Origin: Candidatus Sungiibacteriota bacterium
Lineage (GTDB): Bacteria > Patescibacteriota > Minisyncoccia > Sungbacterales > HO2-52-23
Direction: 5' to 3'
Assembly (NCBI GenBank): GCA_016181585.1
Contig: JACOYX010000016.1
Coordinates: forward strand, 32,467 to 96,466
Length of the DNA: 64,000 bases
Shown: piece by piece, positions 1,106-43,843 of the stretch
Position numbering within the stretch: the stretch's first letter is position 1
How the letters are laid out: each line of letters starts with the position of its first letter
The notes under the pieces: generated by a model
The model's database searches: none
The model's input: only the letters and a program-made list of their open reading frames with translations
What the model was told of the DNA's origin: nothing
Position numbers and translations under genes: made by a program

Positions 1106-1123
1106 TTGAAAGGAGGCCTGAAA

Positions 1124-2467: not shown

Positions 2468-2531
2468 AACCTTCAGTGGAGGGGGACCATCAAGGTTCCC
2501 CTTTTTAAACAGGAAAAGGGAGGAGTGCATC

Positions 2532-5643: not shown

Positions 5644-5657
5644 GCCAAGGAGGGTGA

Positions 5658-9364: not shown

Positions 9365-9403
9365 TATAAAAATTAGCTCTTTATCGTTCATTGAACAAAA
9401 ATC

Positions 9404-9431
9404 AAACCGAGGGATTTCCCCTCGGTTTTTA
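9404..9431 (+). terminator. Intrinsic terminator ending the A-F operon
   Basis: ACCGAGGG-loop-CCCTCGGT stem followed by TTTTT. Confidence 0.7.
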
Positions 9432-9464
9432 ATTCATAAATTTGACAGTCAGCAACCATATGCC

Positions 9465-9494
9465 TTGACAAATATATATTAAATAATATATAGT
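9465..9494 (+). promoter_or_regulatory. Putative promoter of the G-H operon
   Basis: TTGACA at 9465-9470 with TATATA/TATAGT-like -10 candidates 16-18 nt downstream. The exact -10 is ambiguous in this AT-rich stretch. Confidence 0.35.
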
Positions 9495-9539
9495 TTATAG
9501 TAGTTTTATTGACATAAAAATGAGTGAAAGGAGGTCGCT

Positions 9540-10622
9540 TTGTACTTAGGATTACTCATGCTATTTCCTGTGATTGTGGGTGTTAGCGGCTTACTATGGT
9601 CTCGCGGAAAAATATCCATCAAAGAATTTTTTGTTCTGGAAGGATCGTGCTTATTTGTACTTACGATTGGATTTTTTATTGCGCGATTTTCTTCTACCGC
9701 TGATGTGGAAATATGGAGCGGACGCATTACGGCTAAAGAGCGAGTACGAGTAAGCTGTGAACATTCGTATAGCTGTAATCCGCATTCCTGTAATTGTGAT
9801 TCGAAAGGCAATTGCTCCACATGCTATGATACATGCTACGAACATTCCAATGACTGGGATTGGGATATTATTACTTCAAATAGTGAAACAATTACAATTG
9901 ACAGGATTGATAGCCGAGGATCTTACGAGCCACCGCGATGGACTCAAGTATCTATAGGCGAAGCTACGGCACAGGCGCACTATTATGAAAATTATATCAA
10001 AGCGCATCCGGAGTCTATACTCCGCACTCATGGCAATAGAAAAGCCTTTGAGAATCTTATCCCGGAGTATCCGTCCATAATTTATGATTATTATCACAAT
10101 AACCGATTTATCACTGTAGGAATAAGAGAGCCGGAAACAAAATTTTTTAATCGAGCATTGCAAGAGATCAATGCGGATCTTGGGGCTAAGAAAAAAGTAA
10201 ATATTATTGTTGTGGCGGTTAATACCGCCGATTCGGCATATGAGTTTGCGCTTGAGGAGGCGTGGATAGGAGGAAAGAAAAATGATCTGGTGGTGATTCT
10301 TGGCGTTCATGAATATCCAAATATCTCGTGGGTCAGAATTATGTCATGGACGCTTGCGGAAGAGTTGAAAGTTGAACTACGCGATACGTTAATAGACATC
10401 GGTTCAATGAAAAAAAATGATGAATTGCTTCGTGCGATTCGCGATCACGTCGACCGCCAATTTGTACATCGCCACATGAGCGATTTTAAATACCTCATGG
10501 CCGGTGCACAACCGGGTATCACAGGAACAATGATTCTGTTTATTATTGGGGTATCTGCATCAAGCGGACTCGCATATTATTTTTATCGCAACGATCCTTT
10601 TGAATGCAGAAGATACGGATAG
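9540..10622 (+). CDS. Locus protein G: membrane protein with a Cys/His cluster and a TPM-like domain
   Basis: AGGAGG lies 6 nt before TTG 9540 (alternative ATG at 9558). It has two N-terminal TM helices and one C-terminal TM helix, and 7 Cys within aa 73-99. NIIVVAVNTADSAYEFALEEAWIGGKKNDLVVILGV follows the TPM-domain pattern by eye. Confidence 0.65.
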   Translation: MYLGLLMLFPVIVGVSGLLWSRGKISIKEFFVLEGSCLFVLTIGFFIARFSSTADVEIWSGRITAKERVRVSCEHSYSCNPHSCNCDSKGNCSTCYDTCYEHSNDWDWDIITSNSETITIDRIDSRGSYEPPRWTQVSIGEATAQAHYYENYIKAHPESILRTHGNRKAFENLIPEYPSIIYDYYHNNRFITVGIREPETKFFNRALQEINADLGAKKKVNIIVVAVNTADSAYEFALEEAWIGGKKNDLVVILGVHEYPNISWVRIMSWTLAEELKVELRDTLIDIGSMKKNDELLRAIRDHVDRQFVHRHMSDFKYLMAGAQPGITGTMILFIIGVSASSGLAYYFYRNDPFECRRYG

Positions 10623-10699: not shown

Positions 10700-11254
10700 A
10701 TGAAGACACTTGCGATACTCGGAACAATCGGGGTATTGGTCTTATTTTTTGTTGTGGGATATTTTGGATTTCAGAATACTGCAAATGTTCACGAAAACGG
10801 GATTATTGCGCAGTATGATGTTAATAAAAATGTGTATGATAATGGGTGGAAAGAGATAAAAGAAATGGCACAGATACCAGATATGTATACCGGACAGCTG
10901 GAAAAGCTCTACAAAGTAGCGCTGGAAGGACGCTATGGTGCAGATGGGTCAAAAGCAATGATGCAATTTATTCAAGAGCAAAATCCAACGATTGACTCAT
11001 CGCTTTTTAGGCAGATTCAGCAGTCAATTGAAATTTTTCGAAAACGATTTACCGCCGAGCAAACCGCGTTGGTATCAAGAAAACAGGCATATAGAAATTA
11101 TCTCACTGGAACATTCAGCGGCCGTTTATACAACTCGATTGCCGGTGGATATCCAAAAATCGACATGACAAAGTATGATATTGTCACGTCCGATAAGACG
11201 GAGGAAGACTTCGGCACTAAGCGGTCGCGGCCGCTTGATTTTAAGCAAGATTAG
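10700..11254 (+). CDS. Locus protein H: LemA-like single-pass membrane protein
   Basis: GGAGGG precedes ATG 10700. It has an N-terminal TM helix. The C-terminal AYRNYLTGTFSGRLYNSIAGGYP parallels the LemA YN..v..YN....FP....A...GF block. The assignment is tentative. Confidence 0.45.
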   Translation: MKTLAILGTIGVLVLFFVVGYFGFQNTANVHENGIIAQYDVNKNVYDNGWKEIKEMAQIPDMYTGQLEKLYKVALEGRYGADGSKAMMQFIQEQNPTIDSSLFRQIQQSIEIFRKRFTAEQTALVSRKQAYRNYLTGTFSGRLYNSIAGGYPKIDMTKYDIVTSDKTEEDFGTKRSRPLDFKQD

Positions 11255-11309
11255 TTAGCGGCCGGCGTAGAGTGGTTGATAGCTGTAAGCTATAAGTATA
11301 TGCAAATAC

Positions 11310-11340
11310 GGACATCCTAATCAGATGTCCATTTCTTTTT
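11310..11340 (+). terminator. Intrinsic terminator after the LemA-like gene
   Basis: GGACATC-loop-GATGTCC followed by a T-rich run. Confidence 0.65.
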
Positions 11341-11488
11341 ACACCACAAACGTTCTCAAATCCGGGATGTAGATATACTCATTTTGCCTTTCAAAAATGG
11401 TTCCAATATTGTTCACAATACGGAGAAAATAACAGCGAATGCCGGCAATTTTGCCGGCGTTTTAAAATTGACAATTTCTTGTGAAATA

Positions 11489-11671
11489 ATGGGTCTGTTG
11501 CCAAATACCATTCGTTCCGAAAATGATGAATTTCTAGACAAAATTGCTGAACAAACTTTGAGGCCTATCTGGAAGATAAGCTAAAAAGTTTTGAAGCTAT
11601 TTTGGCAGAAATTCATATTTTGGCAGAAATTCATCATTTGCAGGAGAAATGGTATTTGGCAACAGACCCAT
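11489..11671. repeat. Repeat family M, copy 1: 183-bp MITE-like palindromic element
   Basis: Perfect 24-bp terminal inverted repeats (ATGGGTCTGTTGCCAAATACCATT and its reverse complement). The centre is homologous to 18000-18151. An internal 17-bp tandem (ATTTTGGCAGAAATTCA) lies at 11599-11632, two copies abutting without overlap. Confidence 0.85.
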
Positions 11672-11772
11672 AAAAGAACGCTGGCCAAAGGCAGGCATTT
11701 TTATTTTTCTTGACTGTTATCATTAAATAGGGTATAAAGAAAATAGGTCATTACAGAACCGGAGGCAGGTTT

Positions 11773-12078
11773 ATGGAAATTGAAACATTGGAATATATCG
11801 GACAATTTTGGGTGGAGTTTGAGCCTACATTCCAATTAAACGGTTTGGAAAACGTTTCATTTGTTGCGAGCGTGCGAAAAGACACAAATGCTACATTGCT
11901 TCATTTCAAATGGGCGCGCGTGGTTCTACCGCCAGATGCAGATGAATTGAGTTTATATGCCGGAGACATGCAGTATTCTTTGCCGAAAAGCAAAATTGTA
12001 CGAGTTTTTTATCCCGGCGGAATATTTTTTAAACAGCCAGTTCAGCGTAGAGAAGGGGAGACGACTTACATTGGCTAG
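11773..12078 (+). CDS. Hypothetical 101-aa protein
   Basis: GGAGG precedes the ATG. The 3' end overlaps the probable TTG start of the HD hydrolase. Confidence 0.55.
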   Translation: MEIETLEYIGQFWVEFEPTFQLNGLENVSFVASVRKDTNATLLHFKWARVVLPPDADELSLYAGDMQYSLPKSKIVRVFYPGGIFFKQPVQRREGETTYIG

Positions 12079-12700
12079 CATAAATAAATCATTTTCCTTT
12101 CTTGCGGCAGGGGAAAATAGGGAGACTTTTTTTAAACGTATTGAATATTTTTTCCCTTCGCTTGATCCGCGGTATCAGATGATCACAAGAGCGTATGATA
12201 CTTCAAAAGACGCCTTTCACGGAAAGAAGCGGGAAGGCGGAGAGCGGTATTTTGAGCATCTTCGCGCGGTGGCATTAATTCTTATCGACTATCTCCGTGT
12301 TCGCGACTATGAGCTTTTGGTTGCGGCACTTCTCCACGATATTGTCGAGGATATAATGATGTGGAGCGTAGCAAGGGTGCAAAGGGAATTCGGAGACCGC
12401 ATAGCGCTTCTGATACAGTGGTTAAGTAAATCCAGTGCTCTGTTTGATTTGAATGGAGAAAGGGAACATTTATATCACCGGCGATTCCAATTTGCCCCGC
12501 GGGATTTTTTTCTCATAAAACTTGCTGATCGTTGGCACAATCTTTTGACGTTGCATTATTGCTCAAAAGCAAAACAGCGCCGCAAGATTGTGGAAACAAA
12601 ACTGTACTACTTGCCGTATGCGGAAAGGGAATTGATTTTGCTTCATGAGATAGAAGCGGCAATCGATTCAATTGAAAAAACATGGAGCAAGAAACAATAA
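12071..12700 (+). CDS. RelA/SpoT-type HD-domain (p)ppGpp hydrolase-like protein (small alarmone hydrolase-like)
   Basis: YFEHLRAVALIL and LLHDIVEDI match the HD and ED motifs of the RSH hydrolase domain. The start is uncertain: TTG 12071 has GGGGAG upstream, the ORF is open from 11957, and ATG 12179 is an alternative. Confidence 0.65.
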   Translation: MASINKSFSFLAAGENRETFFKRIEYFFPSLDPRYQMITRAYDTSKDAFHGKKREGGERYFEHLRAVALILIDYLRVRDYELLVAALLHDIVEDIMMWSVARVQREFGDRIALLIQWLSKSSALFDLNGEREHLYHRRFQFAPRDFFLIKLADRWHNLLTLHYCSKAKQRRKIVETKLYYLPYAERELILLHEIEAAIDSIEKTWSKKQ

Positions 12701-12724
12701 CCTTGAATACTATAGGTCAACCAG

Positions 12725-12748
12725 AAAGCGGAACCACTCCGCTTTTTA
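12725..12748 (+). terminator. Intrinsic terminator
   Basis: AGCGGA-loop-TCCGCT followed by TTTTT. Confidence 0.6.
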
Positions 12749-12838
12749 TTTTGCTAATTTTTGAAATAAGGTATAATGGCATAAGGTCGAGGGTGACGAG
12801 CAATATTAATTTAAGCAGTAGGTCTAATATCTAAAACT

Positions 12839-13012
12839 ATGGACGAGCAAAAATGCAAAAATTGTCACAAGGACACTATGGGGCACAAATGCGATATGTG
12901 CGGGGAAGAAGCCGAGGCGCACAATGCGGATCATTCCTGTGGCGGAAATCATTGTGTTGGCAAATGCTCCGGATGCAGTGAGGCGGAAACGAACTGTAAA
13001 TGTGAGGCATAG
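12839..13012 (+). CDS. 57-aa Cys/His-rich small protein (putative metal-binding; below the ORF-track cutoff)
   Basis: Hand translation gives MDEQKCKNCHKDTMGHKCDMCGEEAEAHNADHSCGGNHCVGKCSGCSEAETNCKCEA, with 10 Cys arranged as CxxC pairs. It has its own TATAAT box at about 12770 and a terminator at 13028-13056. There is no clear SD. Confidence 0.6.
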   Translation: MDEQKCKNCHKDTMGHKCDMCGEEAEAHNADHSCGGNHCVGKCSGCSEAETNCKCEA

Positions 13013-13027
13013 ACTGCAAGCTAAAGA

Positions 13028-13056
13028 AAAATCCCGGTACGCCGGGACTTTTCTTT
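13028..13056 (+). terminator. Intrinsic terminator
   Basis: TCCCGG-TACG-CCGGGA followed by a T-rich run. Confidence 0.6.
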
Positions 13057-13083
13057 ATATCAACATGCTACTATACTGATCCC

Positions 13084-13314
13084 ATGACGTATACGATCAC
13101 CGTGTTTGCAAAACCGGCGTCGCGGGAAAATAATGTCGAAAAAATCGGCAATGCGGAATTCAGAGTATCCGTGAAGGAGCCGCCGATTCAGGGACGCGCC
13201 AATGCGGCTGTTATCGCGCTCCTTGCAGAATATTTTAATGTTTCGCGCGCGCAAATTCAGATTATCCGCGGGCACGCTTCGCGGGAAAAAATTATTCGTA
13301 TTAGCACACCCTAA
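13084..13314 (+). CDS. DUF167 / YggU-family protein
   Basis: 76 aa. The pattern KPASRENNVEKI...VSVKEPPIQGRANAAVIALLAEYF...IIRGHASREKII is typical of UPF0235/YggU. Confidence 0.7.
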   Translation: MTYTITVFAKPASRENNVEKIGNAEFRVSVKEPPIQGRANAAVIALLAEYFNVSRAQIQIIRGHASREKIIRISTP

Positions 13315-13315
13315 T

Positions 13316-13393
13316 GTGCATACGGTAACTATCTACACCACCCTTTCATGCGTTCATTGCAAAATGGCAAAAGAATTTTTCAAAATTAAATAA
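13316..13393 (+). pseudogene. Glutaredoxin/NrdH-like N-terminal remnant (25 codons)
   Basis: VHTVTIYTTLSCVHCKMAKEFFKIK-stop is the beta1-CxxC-alpha1 start of a glutaredoxin fold and then terminates. Confidence 0.4.
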
Positions 13394-13416
13394 CTATTTT
13401 TCTATAGTCTAAATAT

Positions 13417-13869
13417 ATGAAAACTGGATTGGTGATAGGGAAATTTTATCCGCCGCATAAGGGACATAAATATCTTATCGGTACTGCGGAAAAGGCGGTG
13501 GATCGGCTCATTATTATTGTTTGTGAACGGGATGATCAGAAAATTTCCGGCGATCTGCGCGCCAAGTGGCTTCGCGCAATACACCCGCACGCAGAAGTGC
13601 TCATAGCCGAAGACATTAAAAAAGACAACGATCCCTATGCATGGGCGGAATATATAAAAAAACTTCTCGGGCTTACGCCGGATGTGCTCTTTACTTCCGA
13701 AGATTATGGCGAGCGCTATGCGGGGATTTTAGGATCGCGGCATACAATGGTGGATAGGGAGCGGACTATGGTGCCCATTACTGCCACTGAAATAAGGGAA
13801 AATCCGCTGGAATACAAGGAATACTTGGAACCCTGCGTCTATGAATATTTTCTGAAAAATCGCAACTAA
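13417..13869 (+). CDS. NadR-type nicotinamide-nucleotide adenylyltransferase domain protein (no kinase domain)
   Basis: GKFYPPHKGHKYLI (the GxFxPxHxGH motif) and ITATEIRENP (ISATxIR-like motif). Confidence 0.75.
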   Translation: MKTGLVIGKFYPPHKGHKYLIGTAEKAVDRLIIIVCERDDQKISGDLRAKWLRAIHPHAEVLIAEDIKKDNDPYAWAEYIKKLLGLTPDVLFTSEDYGERYAGILGSRHTMVDRERTMVPITATEIRENPLEYKEYLEPCVYEYFLKNRN

Positions 13870-13978
13870 CGAATAATAATCTTTAACATTAGATATTATT
13901 CACCAAACTCCGCACACGCTCATTGACATATAGATTAAAAAATTGTACTATCGGGGATAGTGAGAAATGGAGGTTTAC

Positions 13979-14590
13979 ATGACAGAAAAAGCCTTTTTTG
14001 ATCCGAAAAAGACAGCGTTTATTATCGTGGATATGCAGAGGGATTTTTGCCGAGGCGGGGCGCTTGCCGTGCCAGAGGCGGATCGTTTAATTAAGCCGAT
14101 AAATCGGTTAAAGCGGCTTTTTCAAAGTCAAGGCGCATTGGTCATGGCCAGCAGATGCTGGCATCCGCAAGAAAGCGTACATTTTGAAGACTTCGCTGTG
14201 CATGGAGTGCAAAATACCAAGGGTGCCGAATTTAATCCCGGGCTTGATCTTGAAGGCGTTATGCTGATTTCTAAGGGTATGGATCCTGCCGAACAAGGCT
14301 TTTCGGTGTTTGACGGCAGGAGCGAAAATGGAAATCCGTTTGATGCTATTCTTGAGTGGAATAAAATTGAGACGGTGCTATTTGGCGGTGTTGCTCTTGA
14401 GTATTGCGTGGCTTCAAGCGTGCGTGATGCTCGTGGGAAAGGGTATCGAGTTGTATTGGTCGAAGACGCGGTGCGCGCCTTTGATCCTAAAAAAAGAATC
14501 GATACTTTGTATGAGATGGTGCATGGCGATGTGGAGCTTGTACAATGCTCCGAAGTAATAAAAAAGTTCTTTCCGAAACCAAAAAAATAA
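13979..14590 (+). CDS. pncA: Nicotinamidase / isochorismatase-family hydrolase
   Basis: FIIVDMQRDFCRGGALAVPEA is a PncA-type N-terminal motif. GGAGG lies 6 nt before ATG 13979. Confidence 0.75.
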   Translation: MTEKAFFDPKKTAFIIVDMQRDFCRGGALAVPEADRLIKPINRLKRLFQSQGALVMASRCWHPQESVHFEDFAVHGVQNTKGAEFNPGLDLEGVMLISKGMDPAEQGFSVFDGRSENGNPFDAILEWNKIETVLFGGVALEYCVASSVRDARGKGYRVVLVEDAVRAFDPKKRIDTLYEMVHGDVELVQCSEVIKKFFPKPKK

Positions 14591-14594
14591 CAAG

Positions 14595-14620
14595 CGGGGA
14601 GCGCGGCAGGCGCCCGCTCC
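14595..14620 (+). terminator. GC-rich hairpin after pncA
   Basis: GGGAGCG-loop-CGCTCCC stem. The T-run is weak. Confidence 0.45.
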
Positions 14621-14790
14621 CTTAGAAACCGTCCAAAAAGTCCATATTCTACTGCAAATCTTTAACTTCGGCTGCAAAACCTTCAGAGTTCGCCAGATTA
14701 TTGTCCTAATAGTCTTTCCACACTCTTCAGGTTTTTCTCTCGAAATTAAAGATTTTCGTAACGAAAGAGACTTTTTAGACGGTTTCTTAG
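14621..14790. repeat. Repeat family T, copy 1: 170-bp element with CTWAGAAACCGTCYAAAAAGTC terminal inverted repeats
   Basis: The arms at 14621-14642 and 14769-14790 pair at 20 of 22 positions. The same arms occur at 46729-46810. The TTTTCGTAACGAAA core lies at 14753-14766. Confidence 0.8.
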
Positions 14791-14911
14791 AGAATTGCCG
14801 CGGAATTTTCGGAGACGTGGTCTCCGAAACATATTCGGCTTCAATTCTCTTCCTCTAATATAAAATATCGGAGGAGGCGTTCTTTACATAAAACCCAAAA
14901 AGGAGAAAAAT

Positions 14912-15175
14912 ATGGCACTTTCCAAGAGAGAATTGGTGGAGAGAGAGAATGCACAAGAGGAGAACAAAATAAAAGAATTGGAGATATTTATTGACGAACA
15001 ACTTCGGAAAAAATTCGAGTTGGATGGCAAAGTAACTATATCTTTTAACCATAGTAGCGGTCAGATGTCCGAACGTCAGATGAACATAATTAAGCGGATA
15101 TATGAATTACCTGAAATTGGCTGGAAAATATCTGTTGAGATTACATCTTGTGATATTATTTTGACTTTCGAATAA
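14912..15175 (+). CDS. Hypothetical 87-aa protein
   Basis: AAGGAG precedes the ATG. The gene sits inside the NAD island. Confidence 0.55.
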   Translation: MALSKRELVERENAQEENKIKELEIFIDEQLRKKFELDGKVTISFNHSSGQMSERQMNIIKRIYELPEIGWKISVEITSCDIILTFE

Positions 15176-15185
15176 GATTTGTAAT

Positions 15186-16583
15186 ATGCCCACCATTGCA
15201 CTCTTTGGAACAAGCGCTAATCCGCCCGGTGAACATCATAGGGAAATAGTACGCGCGGCGGCAAGGATGTTTGATAAAGTAATTATTGTGCCTTGCGGCC
15301 CGCGGACGGATGGAAAACTTACCGTAAACGATATCGCGCCAATTCATCGTGCGATCATGAGTGATTTGGCATTTCGCACAATTGCGCCGAATGTCGAGGT
15401 TGATCTTTCGGATCTGGAGCGCAAATCTTTTACGAAAACCTATGAACTGGATGAGCGTTATCGGCGATATGGGGACGCATATCACATTGTAGGCATGGAT
15501 CTTGTATCGAGAGATATTGGGGGGATCCCGCAAGTTCAAACATGGGAACATGGGTTGGATTTATGGAATAATGCGCGATTTGCCGTTGTGCTTCGCGTGG
15601 GGATACCGTTTAATCCACAAGATATGCCGCCGAACCACATCTTAATTTCCCCGGAAAGAAGCGGTTCGAGTACTGAAATTCGCCGCAACATATTTGAGCA
15701 TAAATCGATTATCGGATTGGTCTCTCCCGAAATTGAAACATATATCGGGCAGTTCGGTCTTTACCGAGAATACAAAAAACACGACCGCATTTTTGTGAAC
15801 ATTTCCGAGCCGCGTATTATTTTCTTTGTGAATCAGCACAGCGAAGAGGCAAGGCGGCTTTACCAAGAAGTCAGGCATCTTGAAAATCAGGAAAATCCGA
15901 ATCTTGTGGTAACGATAGGCGGGGATGGTATCATGACGCATGCTATTCGCGCGCATTGGCGCAGGCGCGTTCCGTTTCTTGGGATTAATGCGGGGCATGA
16001 AGGATTTTTACTGAATGAAAGAGTAGGGCACTTGACTGCGGATTTTTTTAAACAAGAATTTGTTTTGAGAAGTTCGCCTCTCTTGCATGTACGCGCTGTT
16101 GGCGACGATGGCGGGGTGCAGGAAATCATGGCAGTCAACGATGCTTGGATGCAGGTTGAGCCGGGAAATACGGGTTGGTTTGAGTTGTATGTGGACGGAC
16201 GCAGAAAGTTTTCCGAAATCGACCCGGTGGAGGGTGATGGAGTTCTTGTTGCCACTGCGGCGGGATCAACGGCTTACGCCAGAACCATGGGCGCAACACC
16301 CATGCATTACAGCGAGGATAAACTGGTGCTTGTGGGATCGCACATTATCAAACCGTTTTCTTGGAAACAGGGGACTCATTTGCATAACGACGACGCCGAA
16401 GTGCGCATAGTCAATGCCGATAAAAGCGGTTGGCGCAAACTTTTTGGCTTTGCGGACAATCTAAAGCTCGGTCAAGTGAACGAGATGCAAATTCGTTTAA
16501 GCCGTATTGCATCCGCGCACCTTTTGTTTACTCCGCAAAGCGACCGGGAAAAAATCGACAAATACCGATTTCCGAAAAACTAG
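15186..16583 (+). CDS. Fusion protein: NadD-type NMN/NaMN adenylyltransferase (N-terminal) plus NAD kinase (C-terminal)
   Basis: N-terminal half: FGTSANPPGEHH and GSSTEIRRNI (the ISSTxIR motif). C-terminal half: VVTIGGDGIM, GINAGHEGFL and VATAAGSTAYARTMGA (the NAD kinase GGDG, NE/D-like and GSTAY motifs). Confidence 0.8.
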   Translation: MPTIALFGTSANPPGEHHREIVRAAARMFDKVIIVPCGPRTDGKLTVNDIAPIHRAIMSDLAFRTIAPNVEVDLSDLERKSFTKTYELDERYRRYGDAYHIVGMDLVSRDIGGIPQVQTWEHGLDLWNNARFAVVLRVGIPFNPQDMPPNHILISPERSGSSTEIRRNIFEHKSIIGLVSPEIETYIGQFGLYREYKKHDRIFVNISEPRIIFFVNQHSEEARRLYQEVRHLENQENPNLVVTIGGDGIMTHAIRAHWRRRVPFLGINAGHEGFLLNERVGHLTADFFKQEFVLRSSPLLHVRAVGDDGGVQEIMAVNDAWMQVEPGNTGWFELYVDGRRKFSEIDPVEGDGVLVATAAGSTAYARTMGATPMHYSEDKLVLVGSHIIKPFSWKQGTHLHNDDAEVRIVNADKSGWRKLFGFADNLKLGQVNEMQIRLSRIASAHLLFTPQSDREKIDKYRFPKN

Positions 16584-16595
16584 AAAGGAGGATGT

Positions 16596-17840
16596 ATGTC
16601 TCTATTATGGCAGCCAATCATCCAGTCTCGGCTTGATACCGATTTTTACAAATTGACCATGGGTCAATTTGTCTACCATCGTTACCCTGAAGTTCGGGTA
16701 ATGTATGAAATGAAAAACCGCACTAAGAGCGTGCGGATCGCTAATTTTGTAGATGAAAACGATTTGCGAAAGGAATTGAATCATCTGCAGGGGATATGCC
16801 TTACTCCTAAAGAATATTTTAATCTGCGCGATCTTCGTTTTGATGGGCGGAGACGAATGTTTCAAGATGATTATCTGGATTTTTTTCGGGGTCTATTTTT
16901 ACCTGACTACCGCCTTGAAAAAGAAGACGGCGAATATAAGCTCACGTTTCCGGGAAAATGGAGCGAAGCAATATATTGGGAATCGCCGGCGCTTGCCATC
17001 GTTACAGAGCTGACGTACCAAGGCATGATGAAGCAAATGAGTTCTGCAGAACGATCCTTGCATATTGCAACCGGCGCGGAACGAATGGTGAACAAATTAA
17101 AAATCATCCAGAATTATCCCGGAATCAGCTTTATGGAATTCGGTACCAGAAGGCGTTTTAGCCGCGAATGGCAGGATTATGTTATAGCCTCTGCTAAAAT
17201 GCTTGTGCCGCAGCATCTTCTCGGCACTTCGAATGTGTGGATGGCTATGAAGCATGGCATCAAGTCTGGTGGTACGGTAGCGCACGAGACCAGCATGGCT
17301 TTTGCTTGCATTTACCACTCGAACGATGATGAAATTCGCGCTTCGCAAATGAAAATGCTGGATGAGTGGGTACAGGAGTATAGCCCTTATCTTCTTACCG
17401 CTCTCACCGATCTTTATGGCAGCGCATTTTTCTTCTCCGAATTTAAAAGTCGCGCCGCCAAATGGCAGGGCATGCGCCAAGATTCCGGCGATCCTTTTGC
17501 GTTCGCGAAGGCCGCAATCAAGTTCTTTGAGGATTTGTGGATTAATCCGAAAACAAAAACAGTCTTGTTTAGTGACGGACTTGATGTAGACACAATCATA
17601 AAACTACATCTTGCTTTCAGCCAAAGCATTCAGTGCGCTTTTGGCTGGGGAACAAATCTCACGAATGATTTAGATTTTCCTCCGATATCGCTGGTGATAA
17701 AACTAATCGAATGTTGCGGATACCCCGCAGTAAAATTGAGTGACAATCTCGCCAAAGCCACCGGCCCCGCGGAAGAGATTGAGCGGTATAAAAAGATCTT
17801 TCGCCATACCGGAACACTATACGAACCGTGTACGTATTAA
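16596..17840 (+). CDS. pncB: Nicotinate phosphoribosyltransferase
   Basis: LDTDFYKLTMGQ at the N-terminus, FGTRRR, and a length of 414 aa. AGGAGG precedes the ATG. Confidence 0.85.
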   Translation: MSLLWQPIIQSRLDTDFYKLTMGQFVYHRYPEVRVMYEMKNRTKSVRIANFVDENDLRKELNHLQGICLTPKEYFNLRDLRFDGRRRMFQDDYLDFFRGLFLPDYRLEKEDGEYKLTFPGKWSEAIYWESPALAIVTELTYQGMMKQMSSAERSLHIATGAERMVNKLKIIQNYPGISFMEFGTRRRFSREWQDYVIASAKMLVPQHLLGTSNVWMAMKHGIKSGGTVAHETSMAFACIYHSNDDEIRASQMKMLDEWVQEYSPYLLTALTDLYGSAFFFSEFKSRAAKWQGMRQDSGDPFAFAKAAIKFFEDLWINPKTKTVLFSDGLDVDTIIKLHLAFSQSIQCAFGWGTNLTNDLDFPPISLVIKLIECCGYPAVKLSDNLAKATGPAEEIERYKKIFRHTGTLYEPCTY

Positions 17841-17869
17841 ACAACTTTGAGTGAAGCGCATGGCACTTC

Positions 17870-17992
17870 ACTCCTTTATGAAGTTTTTATTCTAACGACC
17901 TACTGCGTAAAGATTTTCGTTACGAAAATCTTTACGCAGTAGGTCTTAAATTTCGTGAAATAAAAACTTCTTGAGGAAAAGTTCTTTACAAA
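17870..17992. repeat. Repeat family S, copy 1: long hairpin element containing a 49-bp near-perfect palindrome (17897-17945)
   Basis: GACCTACTGCGTAAAGATTTTCGT, then T, then ACGAAAATCTTTACGCAGTAGGTC. The outer arms CCTTTATGAAGTTTTTATT and its complement also pair. It is homologous to 19003-19073 and 61547-61612. Confidence 0.85.
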
Positions 17993-17999
17993 ATAGAAA

Positions 18000-18151
18000 G
18001 GGACTGTTGCCGAATTATCTTTGAAGCGAAATTTCAGAAATTCGAGGCAAATTTTTCAAACAAAATTCGAGGCCTACCTGCAAGGTAAGCCAAGAAAAAA
18101 TTTGACCGAATTTATGGAATTGCAGCCAAAGTATAATTCGGCAACAGTCCC
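18000..18151. repeat. Repeat family M, copy 2: 152-bp MITE-like palindromic element
   Basis: Perfect 19-bp terminal inverted repeats (GGGACTGTTGCCGAATTAT). The centre AAATTCGAGGCCTACCTGCAAGGTAAGCC is homologous to copy 1. Confidence 0.85.
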
Positions 18152-18169
18152 AGAAAGGAAAATAATAAT

Positions 18170-18973
18170 ATGATGCCGATAGATTTAGTATTACTCCGTC
18201 ATGGCGAAGCCGAAGGCAACATTGCGGCGGATCGCTCGAAGAAAGGGGACCACGCGCTCTTTACTCCCGAATTTAAGCAACGGCATAGTTCCATTTGGCG
18301 CTTGACCGACAGGGGGATAAAGCAGGCGCAAGCGGCAGGGGTCTGGATGAAAAACCATCTCGGAGTACATTTTTTTGATCGATACCATACTTCCACCCAT
18401 CTTCGCTCAATGGAAACCGCATACAATCTCAATCTGCCCGCCATATGGTATCCAGACATTGATCTCCGCGAACGGGACTGGGGCATATTTGACTGTATGT
18501 CCCAGGAGGAGCGCCATGAAAAATTCGCGGAAGTATTCAAGCGGCGCTCTATTGACGGCTTTTATTGGCGGCCAACAGGCGGAGAAACCATGGCGGAGCT
18601 TTATATCCGCGCATTCAAAATCCCGATTGACACGCTTCACCGCGAATGTTCGGCGAAGCGAGTGCTGATTGTTTCGCACGGCGAAGTCATGTGGATATGG
18701 CGCTTTGGACTCGAACGCATGTATCTTGATCAATATCGCGATCTGGACAATTCCAAAAATACTTTTGATAAAATTCATAATTGCCAGATTTTGCACTATA
18801 GCCGCAGAGATCCCGTAAGCGGAGAATTGTCGCCGCACCTTGACTGGATGCGCTCGATATGTCCGTGGGACATCTCGATTTCTTCCAATGAATGGAGAGA
18901 AATCAAGCGACCCATATATACCAATAGCGAACTTGAACGAATTGTAAGCCAAGTTCCCCGCGTCATTTATTAA
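18170..18973 (+). CDS. Histidine phosphatase superfamily (phosphoglycerate-mutase-like) protein
   Basis: LVLLRHGEAEGN is the RHG catalytic motif, and IVSHGEVM is the second His motif. Confidence 0.7.
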   Translation: MMPIDLVLLRHGEAEGNIAADRSKKGDHALFTPEFKQRHSSIWRLTDRGIKQAQAAGVWMKNHLGVHFFDRYHTSTHLRSMETAYNLNLPAIWYPDIDLRERDWGIFDCMSQEERHEKFAEVFKRRSIDGFYWRPTGGETMAELYIRAFKIPIDTLHRECSAKRVLIVSHGEVMWIWRFGLERMYLDQYRDLDNSKNTFDKIHNCQILHYSRRDPVSGELSPHLDWMRSICPWDISISSNEWREIKRPIYTNSELERIVSQVPRVIY

Positions 18974-19002
18974 TTCTTTTGCGCGAGTTCCGTTTTCAAC
19001 GG

Positions 19003-19073
19003 GACTCCTTTATGGAGCGGCTTATTCTTACGAGAGCAGGTCTCGTGAGAATAGGAAACTCCTTGAGGAAAAG
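19003..19073. repeat. Repeat family S, copy 2
   Basis: ACTCCTTTATGGAG...TTATTCTTACGAGA-GCAGG-TCTCGTGAGAATAGG...CTCCTTGAGGAAAAG is collinear with copy 1. Confidence 0.7.
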
Positions 19074-19106
19074 ATTTTTGAAAACTTAAAACGAGAGGAG
19101 AACAAC

Positions 19107-20069
19107 ATGAAGCGGAAAGAAAAGTCTCCTGTTATTTTCCACTGCCCGCAAATGGAGAATTTAGCCAAGGCGGTTATTACGAGATCCGGAGTATACGCGC
19201 TTGCAAAAGGTATAATTGATTGGAACATATTTCCTGATGGCTCGCTCGACGCGGTGATTGGCGGGCGCGAAAAACGCAGCGGATATATTGCGAGTATGGT
19301 GCGGGGGCGCGATGTAGTGTTTCTTGCATCATTCGATTCACCGGCAGATATCCAGAATCAAATGCTGGTGATCTATCAGCTTGCGCGCCACGAGGCGCAT
19401 TCGCTGAAGATTATTCTGCCGTATTTTCCCGGCACGATGGACCGGGAAGATCAGGAAGGCAGAGTGGTAAACGCAGTAGGATATATGGATCAACTGGCCA
19501 ATATACCGCTCCAGCGCGGTCCGGCTATTGTCATTACGTTTGACTTGCATGTGCCGCATGAGCTTTTCTACCTCGGTCATAACGCGCGATGTCGCGCATT
19601 GAGCGCCTTGCCGCTTTTGAAGGGGCAACGCGCACTTTTGCTATCGCAGGAAAACCATACCGCAGTTGCGTTTCCTGATGACGGTGCATACAAGCGCTTT
19701 GCTCACCTGATGGAACCATTACACAAAATAATATGTTATAAAAAGCGCAACAGAGACGCTCGTAAAGTAGTTATTGTCGAGGGAGATCCGAAGGATCAGC
19801 ATGTCATTATTGTCGATGATATTATTATGACGGGAGCAACCATGCTTGAGTGCAAGAATGTTTTGCTCGAAGCGGGTGCCGCAAGCGTGAGTCTTTTTGC
19901 TTCGCACGGCATTTTTCCGCAGGAATCATGGAAAAAATTTATTGATGCGGGATTTAAGCACATTTGGATCACCGATTCGTGCCCTGAAAGCGCGGGTGCG
20001 GTGCGAGGCCAGAAACCTTTTGAAGTGCTTTCGCTTGCATCGCTTATCGCACATGCAATAACCGAATAG
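19107..20069 (+). CDS. Divergent ribose-phosphate pyrophosphokinase (Prs)-like protein
   Basis: VIIVDDIIMTGATM is a PRPP/ribose-5-P loop, and ITFDLHVPHE corresponds to the DLH motif. The flexible-loop region is TMDREDQEG rather than the canonical ARQDRK. Confidence 0.65.
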   Translation: MKRKEKSPVIFHCPQMENLAKAVITRSGVYALAKGIIDWNIFPDGSLDAVIGGREKRSGYIASMVRGRDVVFLASFDSPADIQNQMLVIYQLARHEAHSLKIILPYFPGTMDREDQEGRVVNAVGYMDQLANIPLQRGPAIVITFDLHVPHELFYLGHNARCRALSALPLLKGQRALLLSQENHTAVAFPDDGAYKRFAHLMEPLHKIICYKKRNRDARKVVIVEGDPKDQHVIIVDDIIMTGATMLECKNVLLEAGAASVSLFASHGIFPQESWKKFIDAGFKHIWITDSCPESAGAVRGQKPFEVLSLASLIAHAITE

Positions 20070-20083
20070 CAATGAGGAAAAAC

Positions 20084-22060
20084 ATGGATATTGGAAAAAA
20101 CAACTATGGATTTATCCGCGTAGCGGCAGTATCTCCGGAAATTAAGATTGGCAACCCGAAGCATAATGCGGAAAACATCATACAATGGCTTCCGACACTG
20201 CGTGATAATGCAATCGCCGTATTTCCGGAAATGTGCCTAACCGGCTATACGGTTGGCGATTTATTTTTTTCGGAGACACTGCAGAAAGCGGCATTGGACG
20301 CGCTCCGCAGACTTCGCAGGGCATCGGGACATTTTGACACTGTTCTGGTCGTTGGGCTTCCTTTAGCAGTTGGCGGCAAACTTTTTAATGTTGCGGCTGT
20401 GGTGCACCATGGAATGATTCTTGGCTTCGTGCCAAAAACATATCTCCCAACCTACAAGGAATTTTACGAAAAGCGCTGGTTCTATTCAGCACGAGAACTT
20501 ACTGAAAGCTTTGTAGAGTTTGATGGACTGCGTATTCCTATCGGAGCAGATCTGCTATTTCCCATGAAAGGCACGCCTGGTGCAGTGCTCGGAGTAGAAA
20601 TTTGTGAGGATCTGTGGGCGGCGATTCCGCCGAGTTCTCTGCAAGCGCTTCATGGCGCGACGATCATCGCCAATATCTCCGCATCAAATGATCTTATCGG
20701 TAAATCGGATTATCGGCGGAAACTTGTAGAACAGCAGTCCGCTCGAGGAATGTGCGGATACATATATTCATCCTGCGGATCGGGAGAATCTTCAACCGAT
20801 GTGGTATTCGGCGGACATCTCATGATTGCAGAGAACGGAACCATTTTAGAGGAACGCAGGGGTAATTATTTTGGTCCGCTCCATGCGGCAATAGAAATAG
20901 ACATTTGGCATCTTCTCCATGATCGCGGACAAACTTCTGATTTCGGCGAGGGTGTGCGCACGGTGAAGCTTGAAAAACCATTTCGAAGGCAGGAAATCAA
21001 AAATACTGATAAGATTATCACATCGCTTTCCCGGATTATCGATCCTATGCCGTTTGTGCCCTATGGCGGAGATGAGCGTAACATAAGGACGGCGGAAATT
21101 TTCTCAATTCAGGTGCGCGGACTTGTACAACGCATGAGGGCAACAGGAATCAAAGACCTTGTTCTGGGGCTTTCGGGAGGGCTTGATTCCACTCTTGCGT
21201 TTCTTTTGGCGGCAGAAGCGGCCAACATTCTTGAAGGTCGAGTATTCATATTTTCTCTGCCTGCCGCAGCGACCTCGCCGCGTACGAAAAACAACGCAAA
21301 ACGTCTGGCAGACGAGCTTCAGGATTTGAAAGGGACACCCGTGCTATTTAAAGAAATAGATATTCGTGCAGGAGTTCGCCAGCAATTGCAAGATTTGGAG
21401 AGAAGCGAATCTGCCGAAGATACCGTATTTGAAAACACGCAGGCGCGGTATCGGACGATGCTTCTTTTGAACCACGCAAATTCTGTGCACGGACTTGTAG
21501 TTGGCACTGGAGATCTTTCGGAGCTTGCACTCGGCTGGTGCACATTCAATGGCGACCATATAAGCCACTACAATGTAAATTGCAGTATACCAAAAACGCT
21601 TGTGAAACATATTGTGGAGTGGTATGCGAAAAAATGTGCTCCGGATAAACTTGGGCGGGTGTTGGAAGATGTATTGAATACCGAGTATTCGCCTGAATTA
21701 ACCGGAGACGGTGCGGCTCTTACCCAAAAAACCGAAGAGTTAATCGGCCCCTACAAACTTCACGACTTCTTTTTATATCACTTCATTCGCTGGGGATCTG
21801 GTCCGGAAAAGATTTTCTTTCTGGCCAAAGAGGCCTTTAAAGAAAAATATTCCGGACAGGAAATTAGAAAATGGCTCGGCGTGTTTTTTAAAAGGTTTTT
21901 TGAAAACCAATGGAAGCGATCGGTAATGCCTGATGGTCCGAAAGTGGGTTCGGTATCGCTCTCGCCGCGCGGCGATTGGCGCATGCCGTCGGATATGGAC
22001 GGCGCGCTATGGCTTGCGGCAGTAGATAACATACAAGTAGAAGAGCAAAATAAAAAATAA
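20084..22060 (+). CDS. nadE: Glutamine-dependent NAD+ synthetase (nitrilase domain plus PP-loop synthetase domain)
   Basis: N-terminal CN-hydrolase features (EICEDLW) and the C-terminal LGLSGGLDSTLA PP-loop. About 658 aa. Confidence 0.85.
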   Translation: MDIGKNNYGFIRVAAVSPEIKIGNPKHNAENIIQWLPTLRDNAIAVFPEMCLTGYTVGDLFFSETLQKAALDALRRLRRASGHFDTVLVVGLPLAVGGKLFNVAAVVHHGMILGFVPKTYLPTYKEFYEKRWFYSARELTESFVEFDGLRIPIGADLLFPMKGTPGAVLGVEICEDLWAAIPPSSLQALHGATIIANISASNDLIGKSDYRRKLVEQQSARGMCGYIYSSCGSGESSTDVVFGGHLMIAENGTILEERRGNYFGPLHAAIEIDIWHLLHDRGQTSDFGEGVRTVKLEKPFRRQEIKNTDKIITSLSRIIDPMPFVPYGGDERNIRTAEIFSIQVRGLVQRMRATGIKDLVLGLSGGLDSTLAFLLAAEAANILEGRVFIFSLPAAATSPRTKNNAKRLADELQDLKGTPVLFKEIDIRAGVRQQLQDLERSESAEDTVFENTQARYRTMLLLNHANSVHGLVVGTGDLSELALGWCTFNGDHISHYNVNCSIPKTLVKHIVEWYAKKCAPDKLGRVLEDVLNTEYSPELTGDGAALTQKTEELIGPYKLHDFFLYHFIRWGSGPEKIFFLAKEAFKEKYSGQEIRKWLGVFFKRFFENQWKRSVMPDGPKVGSVSLSPRGDWRMPSDMDGALWLAAVDNIQVEEQNKK

Positions 22061-22092
22061 ATCCTATGAGGCTAAGCCTCATAGGATTTTTA
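22061..22092. terminator. Bidirectional terminator between nadE and the convergent PLP-enzyme gene
   Basis: 12-bp stem ATCCTATGAGGC / GCCTCATAGGAT with T-runs on both strands. Confidence 0.75.
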
Positions 22093-22136
22093 TTGTTCAA
22101 AGATAATTCTACACGAAAATATTTGATTAGCAGGTT

Positions 22137-43384: not shown

Positions 43385-43843
43385 TTATAGGGCTAAGAAA
43401 AAAGAGCGTAAAGCTCTTGTTATCCACACTCCGATCTCCAAATAAATATCAGTTTTAGTATCAACCGCTAGAAAAATAATTTTTTTACAACAACGCCAAG
43501 CGCCAGGAAAAAAGCGACTGTCCCAGCATTTACTACAAACCAAAGTCCTATTGGCCCCAGAATATTTTTGTTAAACATTGCTGTAGATGTACTATTTATT
43601 GCGTATAGCACACTCCCCTTTCAATAAACTCATGAAAAGTGGTGCGAATACAATTCGCACCAAATAAAATAACCAAACATTTTTATAAAAATTTTCGAAT
43701 AAGAATCATGGTTGCCGCTACTACGATACTCCCGCTTATCCACATAACCGGATCGCACAATACTGTAATTAGGAAATCCATTGGAAAATCTACTGAAAAA
43801 CTGTATTATTACAAGAACCCTTTTATCTACAGTAAAATATACC

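What the first reader, a model, noticed from the sequence alone, without database searches (positions are those of the whole stretch)
15186..16583. Single polypeptide fusing NMN/NaMN adenylyltransferase (NadD-type) to NAD kinase
Residues 1 to about 195 carry the nucleotidyltransferase motifs: PPGEHH (the (H/T)xGH motif) and SSTEIR (the ISSTxIR motif). Residues from about 200 to 465 carry the NAD kinase GGDG, GINxGxxGFL-like and GSTAY motifs. There is no stop or frameshift between the halves. The fusion would channel NaMN/NMN toward NAD(P), although NadE acts between the two steps in the Preiss-Handler route. I do not know of a characterised NadD-NadK fusion and cannot check databases here.
Basis: partly seen in the sequence, partly recalled or inferred. 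Interest (0 to 1): 0.6.

Follow-up and report, generated by a model that had tools for sequence, protein, structure and literature searches.

The report
NadD-like adenylyltransferase fused to NAD kinase
One gene in a Candidatus Sungbacteria genome joins a NadD-like adenylyltransferase to an NAD kinase inside a nicotinamide-to-NADP salvage operon; the fusion is real and widespread in public data but I found no study that characterises it.

Summary
Window 15186-16583 (+) is one uninterrupted 465-aa ORF. Residues 1-193 align end to end with NadD models and crystal structures. Residues 202-465 are a complete NAD kinase with GGDG, GINAGHEGFL and GSTAY.

It is not an assembly artefact. More than 100 full-length homologues (40-49% identity) exist in independent assemblies named Patescibacteria, Verrucomicrobiota, Planctomycetota (including Gemmata sp. 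IIL30, a record not labelled as a MAG), Acidobacteriota and Binatia.

The window is a Candidatus Sungbacteria MAG contig. The protein is deposited as MBI2056215.1, "NAD(+)/NADH kinase", so the N-terminal half is not named.

The gene sits in a cluster that covers the whole route from nicotinamide to NADP: pncA, the fusion, pncB, a histidine phosphatase, prs and nadE.

The N domain belongs to a distinct NadD-like clade. That clade also occurs alone next to pncB, and fused to NadE or Nudix. Its HxGH motif is usually rewritten as GxHH, and a His or Thr at position 1 never co-occurs with a His at position 3.

No solved structure spans both halves, and the papers I could search do not describe the fusion. 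I rate it a new variant of a known kind, of moderate interest.

The parts
15186..16583 (+). Whole fusion ORF, 465 aa plus stop (MBI2056215.1, deposited as 'NAD(+)/NADH kinase')
15186..15764 (+). N-terminal NadD-like nucleotidyltransferase domain (residues 1-193)
   Evidence: PF01467 and TIGR00482 over the full model length. The family profile matches NadD structure 1kam, profile positions 2-194 to chain residues 6-193, E 1.5e-17. AF2 model pLDDT is above 90 over most of the domain.
15222..15239 (+). PPGEHH: ATP-binding motif, a permuted HxGH (G-E-H-H)
   Evidence: H18 is invariant and H17 at least 90% conserved in 27 homologues. GxHH occurs in 96 of 151 clade representatives.
15291..15305 (+). 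PCGPR, start of the clade-specific VVPCGPRPDK segment (my reading: it corresponds to the mononucleotide-binding PxxxPxK region of NadD)
   Evidence: P36, G38 and R40 invariant, C37 and P39 nearly invariant, K44 invariant
15666..15683 (+). SSTEIR, the ISSTxIR-type second ATP-binding motif
   Evidence: R166 invariant, S162 and I165 at least 90% conserved. SS(I/V)R dominates in 151 representatives.
15765..15788 (+). Short interdomain linker (residues 194-201) following the conserved GLYR
   Evidence: pLDDT dips to 71 in residues 191-200. L192 invariant, Y193 and R194 at least 90% conserved.
15789..16580 (+). C-terminal NAD kinase domain (residues 202-465)
   Evidence: PRK04761 residues 212-453, E 1.3e-27. 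PDB NAD kinases E 5e-23. Foldseek top 50 hits are all NAD kinases.
15918..15929 (+). GGDG catalytic motif
   Evidence: invariant in 27 of 27 homologues
15981..16010 (+). GINAGHEGFL (NxGxxGFL NAD-binding motif)
   Evidence: G266, N268, G270, G273 and L275 invariant
16236..16295 (+). DGVLVATAAGSTAYARTMGA, the glycine-rich GSTAY motif
   Evidence: T357, G360, S361, R366 and G369 invariant
13417..13869 (+). Context: NadR/NadM-type NMN adenylyltransferase, 150 aa
   Evidence: TIGR01526 E 1.9e-29, below cut-off
13967..14590 (+). Context: PncA nicotinamidase
   Evidence: PF00857; PRK11609 E 3e-29
14912..15175 (+). Context: 87-aa ORF with a good ribosome-binding site, no family, not found in related loci
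16596..17840 (+). Context: PncB nicotinate phosphoribosyltransferase, starting 12 nt after the fusion's stop codon
   Evidence: NF003704 407 bits against cut-off 379
18170..18973 (+). Context: histidine-phosphatase family protein, recurrent in the CPR versions of the cluster
   Evidence: PF00300. 58% identity in L081 and 52% in L085.
19107..20069 (+). Context: Prs-like ribose-phosphate diphosphokinase
   Evidence: TIGR01251 111.8 bits against cut-off 113
20072..22060 (+). Context: glutamine-dependent NAD synthetase NadE
   Evidence: PF00795 plus PF02540

Best explanation
This is a genuine bifunctional enzyme of NAD(P) salvage. The steps below are inferred from homology and context, not assayed.

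1. The N-terminal NadD-like domain adenylylates nicotinate mononucleotide with ATP to give NaAD. The NaMN comes from PncA and PncB, and the PRPP from the clustered Prs.
2. The separately encoded NadE, three genes downstream, amidates NaAD to NAD.
3. The C-terminal NAD kinase domain phosphorylates NAD to NADP.

The two active sites therefore work on non-consecutive steps. The likely benefit of the fusion is fixed 1:1 co-expression and co-assembly of late pathway enzymes, rather than direct substrate tunnelling. NAD kinases are oligomers, so each particle would probably carry several NadD domains; this is inference.

In the N domain, the catalytic His normally at position 1 of HxGH has moved to position 3 (GxHH).
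For: Shown:
- The ORF is continuous and has two domains.
- All catalytic or ligand-binding motifs of both halves are invariant or nearly so across 27 homologues at 40-78% identity.
- The AF2 model is confident (pLDDT 88.7, pTM 0.88), with a short conserved linker. This suggests a fixed interdomain arrangement.
- The C half has the NAD kinase fold.
- The gene lies 12 nt upstream of pncB, in a same-strand cluster pncA-fusion-pncB-hisPhos-prs-nadE.
- Fusion plus pncB recurs in L001, L004, L081, L083, L084 and L085. Most of these also carry pncA, prs and/or nadE. An NrtR regulator gene accompanies the cluster in L001, L004, L083, L084 and L085.
- No other NadD-like or NadK-like ORF exists in the 64-kb window.
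- The same N-domain clade occurs stand-alone directly upstream of pncB (L086). It also occurs fused to NadE (P0214, P0215, P0231). This ties the clade to the NaMN to NaAD to NAD segment.
- Motif covariation in 151 clade representatives: position 1 is H/T with a non-His at position 3 in 32; position 1 is G/A/C/S with His at position 3 in 110; both together in 0; neither in 6. This pattern argues for a retained catalytic His rather than a decayed site.

Precedent: NrtR-controlled nadD2 / pncA-pncB1-nadE salvage genes in Pseudomonas aeruginosa (PMC6363681) and nrtR-pncA-pncB-nadD-nadE in Clostridium (PMC2330246).
Against: - No enzymatic data exist for any member.
- Both halves score below every curated NCBIfam equivalog cut-off: 54.5 against 112.45 for NadD, and 96.6 against 211 for NadK.
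- The literal (H/T)xGH motif is absent.
- NaMN versus NMN preference cannot be read from the sequence.
- A NadR-type NMNAT sits three genes upstream, so adenylyltransferase functions may be partitioned differently from what I assume.
- One clade member (P0256) carries a canonical NadD domain in front of the NadD-like domain and NadK. This hints that the two NadD types are not simply redundant.
- In several Verrucomicrobiota and Planctomycetota genomes the fusion is not next to NAD genes.
- Fused and stand-alone forms interleave on a rough tree, with 21 architecture changes. The fusion is therefore not obligatory for function.
Confidence: 0.7

Rival explanations
1. The N domain prefers NMN or is fully dual-specific. 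The polypeptide would then catalyse two consecutive steps, NMN to NAD to NADP, and could hand NAD directly to the kinase site.
For: Fusions of consecutive steps are the more usual pattern (general knowledge). NadD-family enzymes often accept both substrates (general knowledge). P0256 carries a canonical NadD in front of the NadD-like domain, which suggests distinct roles. The fusion occurs without pncB or nadE neighbours in PVC genomes.
Against: The window already encodes a NadR-type NMNAT at 13417-13869. Apart from that NadR-type enzyme, the pncA/pncB/nadE cluster has no other adenylyltransferase to act on NaMN. NadE fusions and pncB adjacency of the same clade point to the deamido route.
Confidence: 0.15
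2. The N domain is a non-catalytic nucleotide-sensing module derived from NadD. It would regulate the fused NAD kinase allosterically, for example by binding NaAD, NAD or ATP.
For: The canonical first His/Thr of HxGH is missing in the window protein. Scores fall below curated NadD cut-offs.
Against: Motif residues H18, R166, S162 and the PCGPRxxK segment are invariant or nearly so across phyla. The His position 1 / position 3 swap looks compensatory. The same clade exists as a free-standing protein next to pncB, where no kinase is present to regulate.
Confidence: 0.08
3. The pathway order is changed. The kinase domain phosphorylates NaAD made by the N domain to give NaADP (NAADP), and NadE then amidates it to NADP. 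The fused steps would then be consecutive.
For: Only the logic of fusing neighbouring steps, plus the constant co-clustering with NadE. Nothing in the data excludes it.
Against: The NAD-binding motifs of the kinase half are the standard ones. By my own knowledge, no known NAD kinase or NadE has these substrate specificities.
Confidence: 0.04
4. Artefact: two adjacent genes were joined by a sequencing or assembly indel in the A6/T5 runs at the junction.
For: Homopolymer runs lie at nt 15773-15795. Stand-alone versions of the N domain do exist elsewhere.
Against: The same continuous architecture, with similar length (450-492 aa) and a conserved linker, is seen in more than 100 proteins from NCBI, JGI, ENA and Logan assemblies. 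Some of these sit on many contigs; P0088 is on 13.
Confidence: 0.01

Closest known systems
Bacterial NadD, nicotinate-mononucleotide adenylyltransferase (e.g. Bacillus subtilis 1kam, Staphylococcus aureus 2h29, PDB 8aih; TIGR00482)
   Same: Full-length alignment of residues 2-194, the same GGSFNPP start, the ISSTxIR-type motif and a similar length of about 190 aa.
   Different: HxGH is replaced by GxHH. There is a clade-specific PCGPRPDK segment and W120/W127. Scores are below all curated NadD cut-offs. The domain is fused to a kinase.
Salvage-dedicated NadD2 of the Pseudomonas aeruginosa NrtR regulon (nadD2-nrtR / pncA-pncB1-nadE), and the nrtR-pncA-pncB-nadD-nadE operon of Clostridium
   Same: A NadD-type gene embedded in a pncA/pncB/nadE salvage cluster. 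In relatives of this window the cluster is headed by NrtR (PMC6363681, PMC2330246).
   Different: Those NadD proteins are stand-alone and no NAD kinase is part of those operons. I could not test sequence relatedness of NadD2 to this clade. The window itself has no nrtR.
Short NAD kinases of the PRK04761 type (Alphaproteobacteria) and solved NAD kinases (7mh7, 2i2a, 1yt5)
   Same: GGDG, NxGxxGFL and GSTAY motifs, and a two-lobed NAD kinase fold. The C half is 27-31% identical to alphaproteobacterial NadK.
   Different: It carries an N-terminal adenylyltransferase domain and scores below the curated cut-off.
Known bifunctional NAD(P) enzymes: the NADP phosphatase/NAD kinase family (NCBIfam PRK14076; Methanocaldococcus jannaschii MJ0917, from my own knowledge), NadR, and NadM-Nudix
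   Same: The principle of fusing two NAD(P)-pathway activities in one polypeptide. PRK14076 matches the kinase half, E 9e-10.
   Different: The partner domain is different. None of them combines a NadD-type adenylyltransferase with NAD kinase.
VPA0413 of Vibrio parahaemolyticus (PDB 3h05; PRK08887-type NadD-like protein)
   Same: A similar N-terminal 'FGSAFNPPSLGH' segment, with a non-His/Thr residue at motif position 1.
   Different: Only the first ~80 and the last ~40 residues align. It is stand-alone, 177 aa, and deposited as uncharacterised.

Membership tests
NadD (nicotinate-nucleotide adenylyltransferase, TIGR00482 / PF01467) | End-to-end homology to NadD models and structures | tested here: met
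   TIGR00482 model positions 1-194 of 194, E 1.5e-14. Profile against 1kam, positions 2-194 to residues 6-193, E 1.5e-17. PF01467 is above its gathering score.
NadD (nicotinate-nucleotide adenylyltransferase, TIGR00482 / PF01467) | Score above a curated equivalog cut-off | tested here: not met
   54.5 bits against 112.45 for TIGR00482. All other NadD models are also below cut-off. The same holds for stand-alone clade members.
NadD (nicotinate-nucleotide adenylyltransferase, TIGR00482 / PF01467) | (H/T)xGH ATP-binding motif | tested here: not met
   The window has G15-E16-H17-H18. Across the clade, GxHH occurs in 96 of 151, with H/T at position 1 only when position 3 is not His. I read this as a functional permutation, which is an inference.
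NadD (nicotinate-nucleotide adenylyltransferase, TIGR00482 / PF01467) | ISSTxIR second motif | tested here: met
   SSTEIR at residues 161-166; R166 invariant.
NadD (nicotinate-nucleotide adenylyltransferase, TIGR00482 / PF01467) | NaMN (or NMN) adenylyltransferase activity | not testable with these tools
   Needs an enzyme assay.
NAD kinase (NadK/PpnK, PF01513 + PF20143) | GGDG, NxGxxGFL and GSTAY motifs | tested here: met
   Residues 245-248, 266-275 and 360-364. The key positions (GGDG; G266, N268, G270, G273, L275; G360, S361) are invariant in 27 homologues.
NAD kinase (NadK/PpnK, PF01513 + PF20143) | Complete two-lobed NAD kinase fold | tested here: met
   Foldseek against PDB: the top 50 hits are all NAD kinases, E about 1e-15, target-normalised TM 0.63-0.78. 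PRK04761 positions 8-245 of 257. Pfam PF20143 itself was not reported for the window protein at E <= 0.01, but it is precomputed for several homologues.
NAD kinase (NadK/PpnK, PF01513 + PF20143) | Score above curated cut-offs | tested here: inconclusive
   Pfam PF01513 gives 32 bits against 25.5, which is met. The best NCBIfam model gives 96.6 against 211, which is not met.
NAD kinase (NadK/PpnK, PF01513 + PF20143) | ATP- or polyP-dependent phosphorylation of NAD(H) | not testable with these tools
   Needs an enzyme assay.
NrtR-controlled Preiss-Handler salvage operon | Clustered pncA, pncB, nadD-type gene and nadE | tested here: met
   Window 13967-22060, all on the + strand. The arrangement recurs in L001, L004, L081 and L083-L085.
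NrtR-controlled Preiss-Handler salvage operon | NrtR (Nudix + winged-helix) regulator gene at the locus | tested here: not met
   tblastn with three NrtR proteins finds nothing in the window. NrtR is present in L001, L004, L083, L084 and L085.
Bifunctional NADP phosphatase/NAD kinase (PRK14076) | Inositol-monophosphatase-like NADP phosphatase domain N-terminal to NadK | tested here: not met
   PRK14076 matches only residues 209-408, at model positions 319-517. The N half is NadD-like.

The most novel reading that the evidence does not exclude
The fusion marks a re-ordered late pathway. NaAD made by the N domain would be phosphorylated in cis to NaADP (NAADP) and only then amidated by the co-clustered NadE. 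The polypeptide would then catalyse consecutive steps, and a bacterium would make NAADP as a regular intermediate. A milder version is a NadD'-NadK-NadE metabolon, hinted at by the NadE-NadD' fusions in the same clade.
Probability: 0.04. Interest if true: 0.8.

Novelty: new variant of a known kind. Interest (0 to 1): 0.35.

Why it matters
**Annotation.** Hundreds of proteins named only "NAD(+)/NADH kinase" probably also carry the NaMN adenylyltransferase activity. Metabolic reconstructions of Patescibacteria and of PVC and Acidobacteriota genomes may therefore wrongly score NadD as missing.

**Physiology.** Reduced-genome CPR bacteria would carry a compact, self-contained module running from nicotinamide to NADP.

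**Enzymology.** The GxHH form of the HxGH motif is a natural experiment on where the catalytic histidine of class-I-like nucleotidyltransferases can sit.

**Evolution.** The clade's fusions to NadK, NadE and Nudix suggest that late NAD(P) enzymes may associate physically.

None of this overturns current understanding. It is a testable extension of known pathways.

Tried and rejected
- **Phage or counter-defence origin (NARP-like, because of the Prs-like plus phosphoribosyltransferase pair).** Rejected. The window carries murD, ftsW, murG, gltX, pyrG, murC, def and fmt, and it is a Candidatus Sungbacteria contig. PncB passes its curated cut-off. tblastn against 50,697 phage records finds NAD kinases only, and none covers 80% or more of the query.
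- **Foreign island by composition.** The cluster's GC (0.43-0.475) equals that of the rest of the window.
- **Riboswitch upstream.** An Rfam E-value scan of 11000-23000 gives only sub-threshold chance hits.
- **A second NadD or NadK in the window.** None found with HMMs built from either half.
- **Solved structure of a fusion.** None by sequence or by fold.
- **Searches that could not run.** The MMBR review on microbial NAD metabolism is not held.
- **Literature queries for the fusion under several names.** Only irrelevant hits.
- **Conservation of the 87-aa ORF upstream.** No homologue in any fetched locus.
- **Conservation of the 16-nt palindromic core in relatives.** No match in 87 loci.
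- **Single-origin test for the fusion.** A rough NJ tree gives 21 architecture changes against 41 for shuffled labels. Architecture is clustered but not monophyletic, and the tree is too crude to count events.
Full report
**1. Observation.** Window 15186-16583 (+) is a single ORF of 465 codons with no internal stop.

Pfam finds CTP_transf_like (PF01467, residues 6-167) and NAD_kinase (PF01513), both above their gathering scores. NCBIfam aligns residues 6-193 to the entire NadD model TIGR00482 (E 1.5e-14). It aligns residues 212-453 to nearly the entire short NAD kinase model PRK04761 (E 1.3e-27). Both scores are below the curated equivalog cut-offs, so the halves are divergent members of their superfamilies.

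**2. Not an artefact.** The junction contains A6 and T5 runs. Even so, a protein search returned 582 hits, and all 120 listed ones cover 94-100% of the query. Most of them have both Pfam domains precomputed. They come from NCBI, JGI, ENA and Logan assemblies.

In an alignment of 27 of them (40-78% identity), the linker GLYR is itself conserved (L192 invariant) and no gap separates the halves. A scan of one genome per GTDB species found 16 full-length fusions:
- a Patescibacteria MAG;
- Verrucomicrobiota (Luteolibacter, Prosthecobacter, Chthoniobacteraceae);
- Blastocatellia and Binatia;
- Planctomycetia, including Gemmata sp. IIL30, a record not labelled as a MAG.

Below these came only half-length matches of the kinase part, almost all to Alphaproteobacteria at 26-31% identity.

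**3. Source.** Exact look-up shows that ten window proteins belong to one 97,537-bp contig of a Candidatus Sungbacteria MAG (Patescibacteria/CPR). The fusion is MBI2056215.1, named "NAD(+)/NADH kinase". The window carries ordinary cellular genes (murD, ftsW, murG, gltX, pyrG, murC, def, fmt). The cluster's GC content does not differ from the rest of the window.

**4. Anatomy of the two halves.**

*N half.* The family consensus is FGGSFNPPGxHHRxIA ... VVPCGPRPDK ... GSSxxIR. Against canonical NadD (GGxFxPxHxGH), the first His is Gly and the Gly is His.

I aligned the N domains of the 150 best 50%-identity cluster representatives plus the window protein. The four motif positions fall into these classes:

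| Motif class | Count (of 151) |
|---|---|
| Position 1 is G/A/C/S and position 3 is His (GxHH alone: 96) | 110 |
| Position 1 is H/T and position 3 is not His | 32 |
| Position 1 is H/T and position 3 is His | 0 |
| Neither | 6 |
| Gapped | 3 |

The last His of the motif is almost invariant. This mutually exclusive pattern is what a relocated catalytic His would produce, and it is not what a decaying site would produce. The sequences are phylogenetically related, so the counts are not independent events.

*C half.* GGDG, G266/N268/G270/G273/L275, D319 and T357/G360/S361 are invariant.

*Structure.* An AlphaFold2 model built on this alignment has mean pLDDT 88.7 and pTM 0.88. It shows a short linker at about residues 191-201. 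The high pTM for a two-domain chain suggests a defined interdomain packing. Foldseek against the PDB returns NAD kinases as the top 50 hits. The query-normalised TM is at most 0.47, so they cover only the C half. The profile search of PDB sequences finds NadD chains for positions 2-194 and NAD kinase chains for positions 224-435, and no chain with both.

**5. Genomic context.** On the + strand the window encodes, in order:

| Coordinates | Gene product |
|---|---|
| 13417-13869 | NadR-type NMNAT, 150 aa |
| 13967-14590 | PncA |
| 14912-15175 | 87-aa ORF |
| 15186-16583 | the fusion |
| 16596-17840 | PncB, above its curated cut-off, starting 12 nt after the fusion's stop codon |
| 18170-18973 | histidine-phosphatase family protein |
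| 19107-20069 | Prs-like protein |
| 20072-22060 | glutamine-dependent NadE |

Every step from nicotinamide to NADP is therefore encoded here. The fusion supplies steps 3 and 5, with NadE in between. No second NadD-like or NadK-like ORF exists in the 64 kb.

Versions of the arrangement recur elsewhere:
- in the closest relative (L081, 78% identity);
- in Uhrbacteria, Sungbacteria and other Patescibacteria contigs (L083, L084, L085);
- in L001 and L004.

An NrtR regulator gene (Nudix + NrtR winged helix) lies at or near the cluster in L001, L004, L083, L084 and L085. Several clusters include an extra Nudix gene. The window itself has no NrtR. In PVC genomes the fusion is usually away from pncB and nadE. 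In one Planctomycetota contig it overlaps, by 4 nt, the end of a gene for an adenosine-deaminase + Nudix protein, and a histidine phosphatase gene lies nearby.

**6. The N domain is a clade of its own.** A full HMMER scan of 1.84 billion representatives with residues 1-198 gave only 730 hits at E <= 1e-3, 315 at E <= 1e-10 and 113 at E <= 1e-30. Canonical NadD proteins are therefore mostly out of reach.

Architectures among the best 150 plus the window:

| Architecture | Count |
|---|---|
| N-terminal to a C-terminal extension of at least 230 aa (NAD kinase in the window and every member checked) | 83 |
| Stand-alone proteins of about 190-210 aa | 52 |
| C-terminal to NadE (P0214, P0215, P0231) | 3 |
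| Following a canonical NadD domain and preceding NadK (P0256) | 1 |
| Partial or other, including one fused to Nudix (P0210) | 12 |

One stand-alone member is a complete internal gene directly upstream of pncB (L086). Neither the stand-alone nor the fused members reach any NCBIfam NadD cut-off. That explains why automated annotation names the fusion after its kinase half only. On a rough NJ tree the fused and free forms are clustered but interleaved, with 21 changes against 41 for shuffled labels. Fusion or fission seems to have happened more than once, but the tree is crude.

**7. Mechanism (inferred).** The N domain most likely adenylylates NaMN produced by PncB. NadE amidates NaAD. The C domain phosphorylates NAD.

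The association of the clade with pncB, and its independent fusions to NadE, support the deamido route. The conserved motifs support activity of both halves. Because the fused steps are not consecutive, I favour co-expression and co-assembly over direct channelling.

Four rivals remain:
- an NMN-preferring N domain, which would make the steps consecutive (0.15);
- a regulatory, non-catalytic N domain (0.08);
- a re-ordered pathway through NaADP (0.04);
- an artefact (0.01).

**8. Comparison with what is known.** The nearest described systems are:
- stand-alone NadD;
- the NrtR-controlled salvage genes nadD2-nrtR / pncA-pncB1-nadE of P. aeruginosa (PMC6363681), and nrtR-pncA-pncB-nadD-nadE of Clostridium (PMC2330246), none of which includes NAD kinase;
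- short NAD kinases;
- other bifunctional NAD(P) enzymes, namely NADP phosphatase/NAD kinase, NadR and NadM-Nudix.

Searches of 8 million full texts under several names found no description of a NadD-NadK fusion. One JGI record does carry the automatic name [quoted passage not shown] (P0094).

**9. Verdict.** The architecture is already abundant in public data, but I found no study or solved structure of it, and it is under-annotated. It also carries a permuted HxGH motif. I rate it a new variant of a known kind and of moderate interest (0.35). It is useful for annotation and for a neat piece of enzymology, but it does not change how the field thinks about NAD metabolism.

Noticed in passing
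window 17897-17945 and 14751-14766: A perfect 24+24-nt inverted repeat lies between the pncB stop and the histidine-phosphatase gene. Its core GATTTTCGTWACGAAA recurs exactly once more, in the 320-bp intergenic region upstream of the 87-aa ORF and the fusion. These are the only exact sites in 64 kb (0.3 expected even allowing 2 mismatches), and there are none in the 87 related loci. It could be a cluster-specific operator or a terminator. The window lacks the NrtR gene found in relatives.
   Followed up: partly
L081 3818-4726; L083 6959-7858; L085 6936-7829: A conserved ~300-aa protein with no Pfam or NCBIfam match (36-56% identity between loci) sits between pncA and the fusion in three CPR clusters. 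It is absent from the window, where an unrelated 87-aa ORF (14912-15175) occupies that place.
   Followed up: partly
window 18170-18973; L081 8041-8844; L085 11555-12352; L088 1500-2189: A histidine-phosphatase (His_Phos_1) gene recurs inside or beside the NAD(P) clusters that carry the fusion. The L081 and L085 copies are 58% and 52% identical to the window's. The L088 copy is a His_Phos_1 protein that my search did not detect as similar to the window's. Its role is unknown; an NADP or mononucleotide phosphatase is one guess.
   Followed up: partly
proteins P0214, P0215, P0231, P0210, P0256 (metagenomic representatives); L087 131-2623: The same NadD-like clade also occurs fused C-terminally to NadE (830-836 aa and 509 aa) and N-terminally to a Nudix domain (397 aa). 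Once it occurs as canonical NadD + NadD-like + NAD kinase in one 633-aa protein.
   Followed up: partly
window 13417-13869 and 45439-46557 (-): A 150-aa NadR-type NMN adenylyltransferase heads the cluster. About 30 kb away lies a 372-aa protein with an AAA_28 domain (to my knowledge the family of NadR's ribosylnicotinamide-kinase domain) and no NCBIfam match. Together they might be a split NadR-like nicotinamide riboside route.
   Followed up: partly
L081 6335-7933: In the closest relative (fusion 78% identical), the gene after the fusion is a 532-aa NAPRTase_N protein. tblastn with the window's PncB does not detect it, so the phosphoribosyltransferase in the cluster appears to have been exchanged for a different type.
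   Followed up: no
window 42341-45097: A tyrosine integrase (42341-43384, - strand) lies next to a PD-(D/E)XK/Cas4-like nuclease (43781-45097, + strand). This may be the edge of an integrated element.
   Followed up: no
window 3667-6905: An AAA ATPase (658 aa) is followed by a DUF6638 protein (415 aa). Several large neighbouring ORFs (1106-3680, 7487-10622) have no Pfam match.
   Followed up: no
window 14594-14622: A GC-rich inverted repeat (GCGGGGAGCGC...GCGCCCGCTCC) lies directly after the pncA stop codon. It suggests a transcript end before the 320-bp intergenic region, so the fusion probably starts a new transcription unit with the 87-aa ORF.
   Followed up: no
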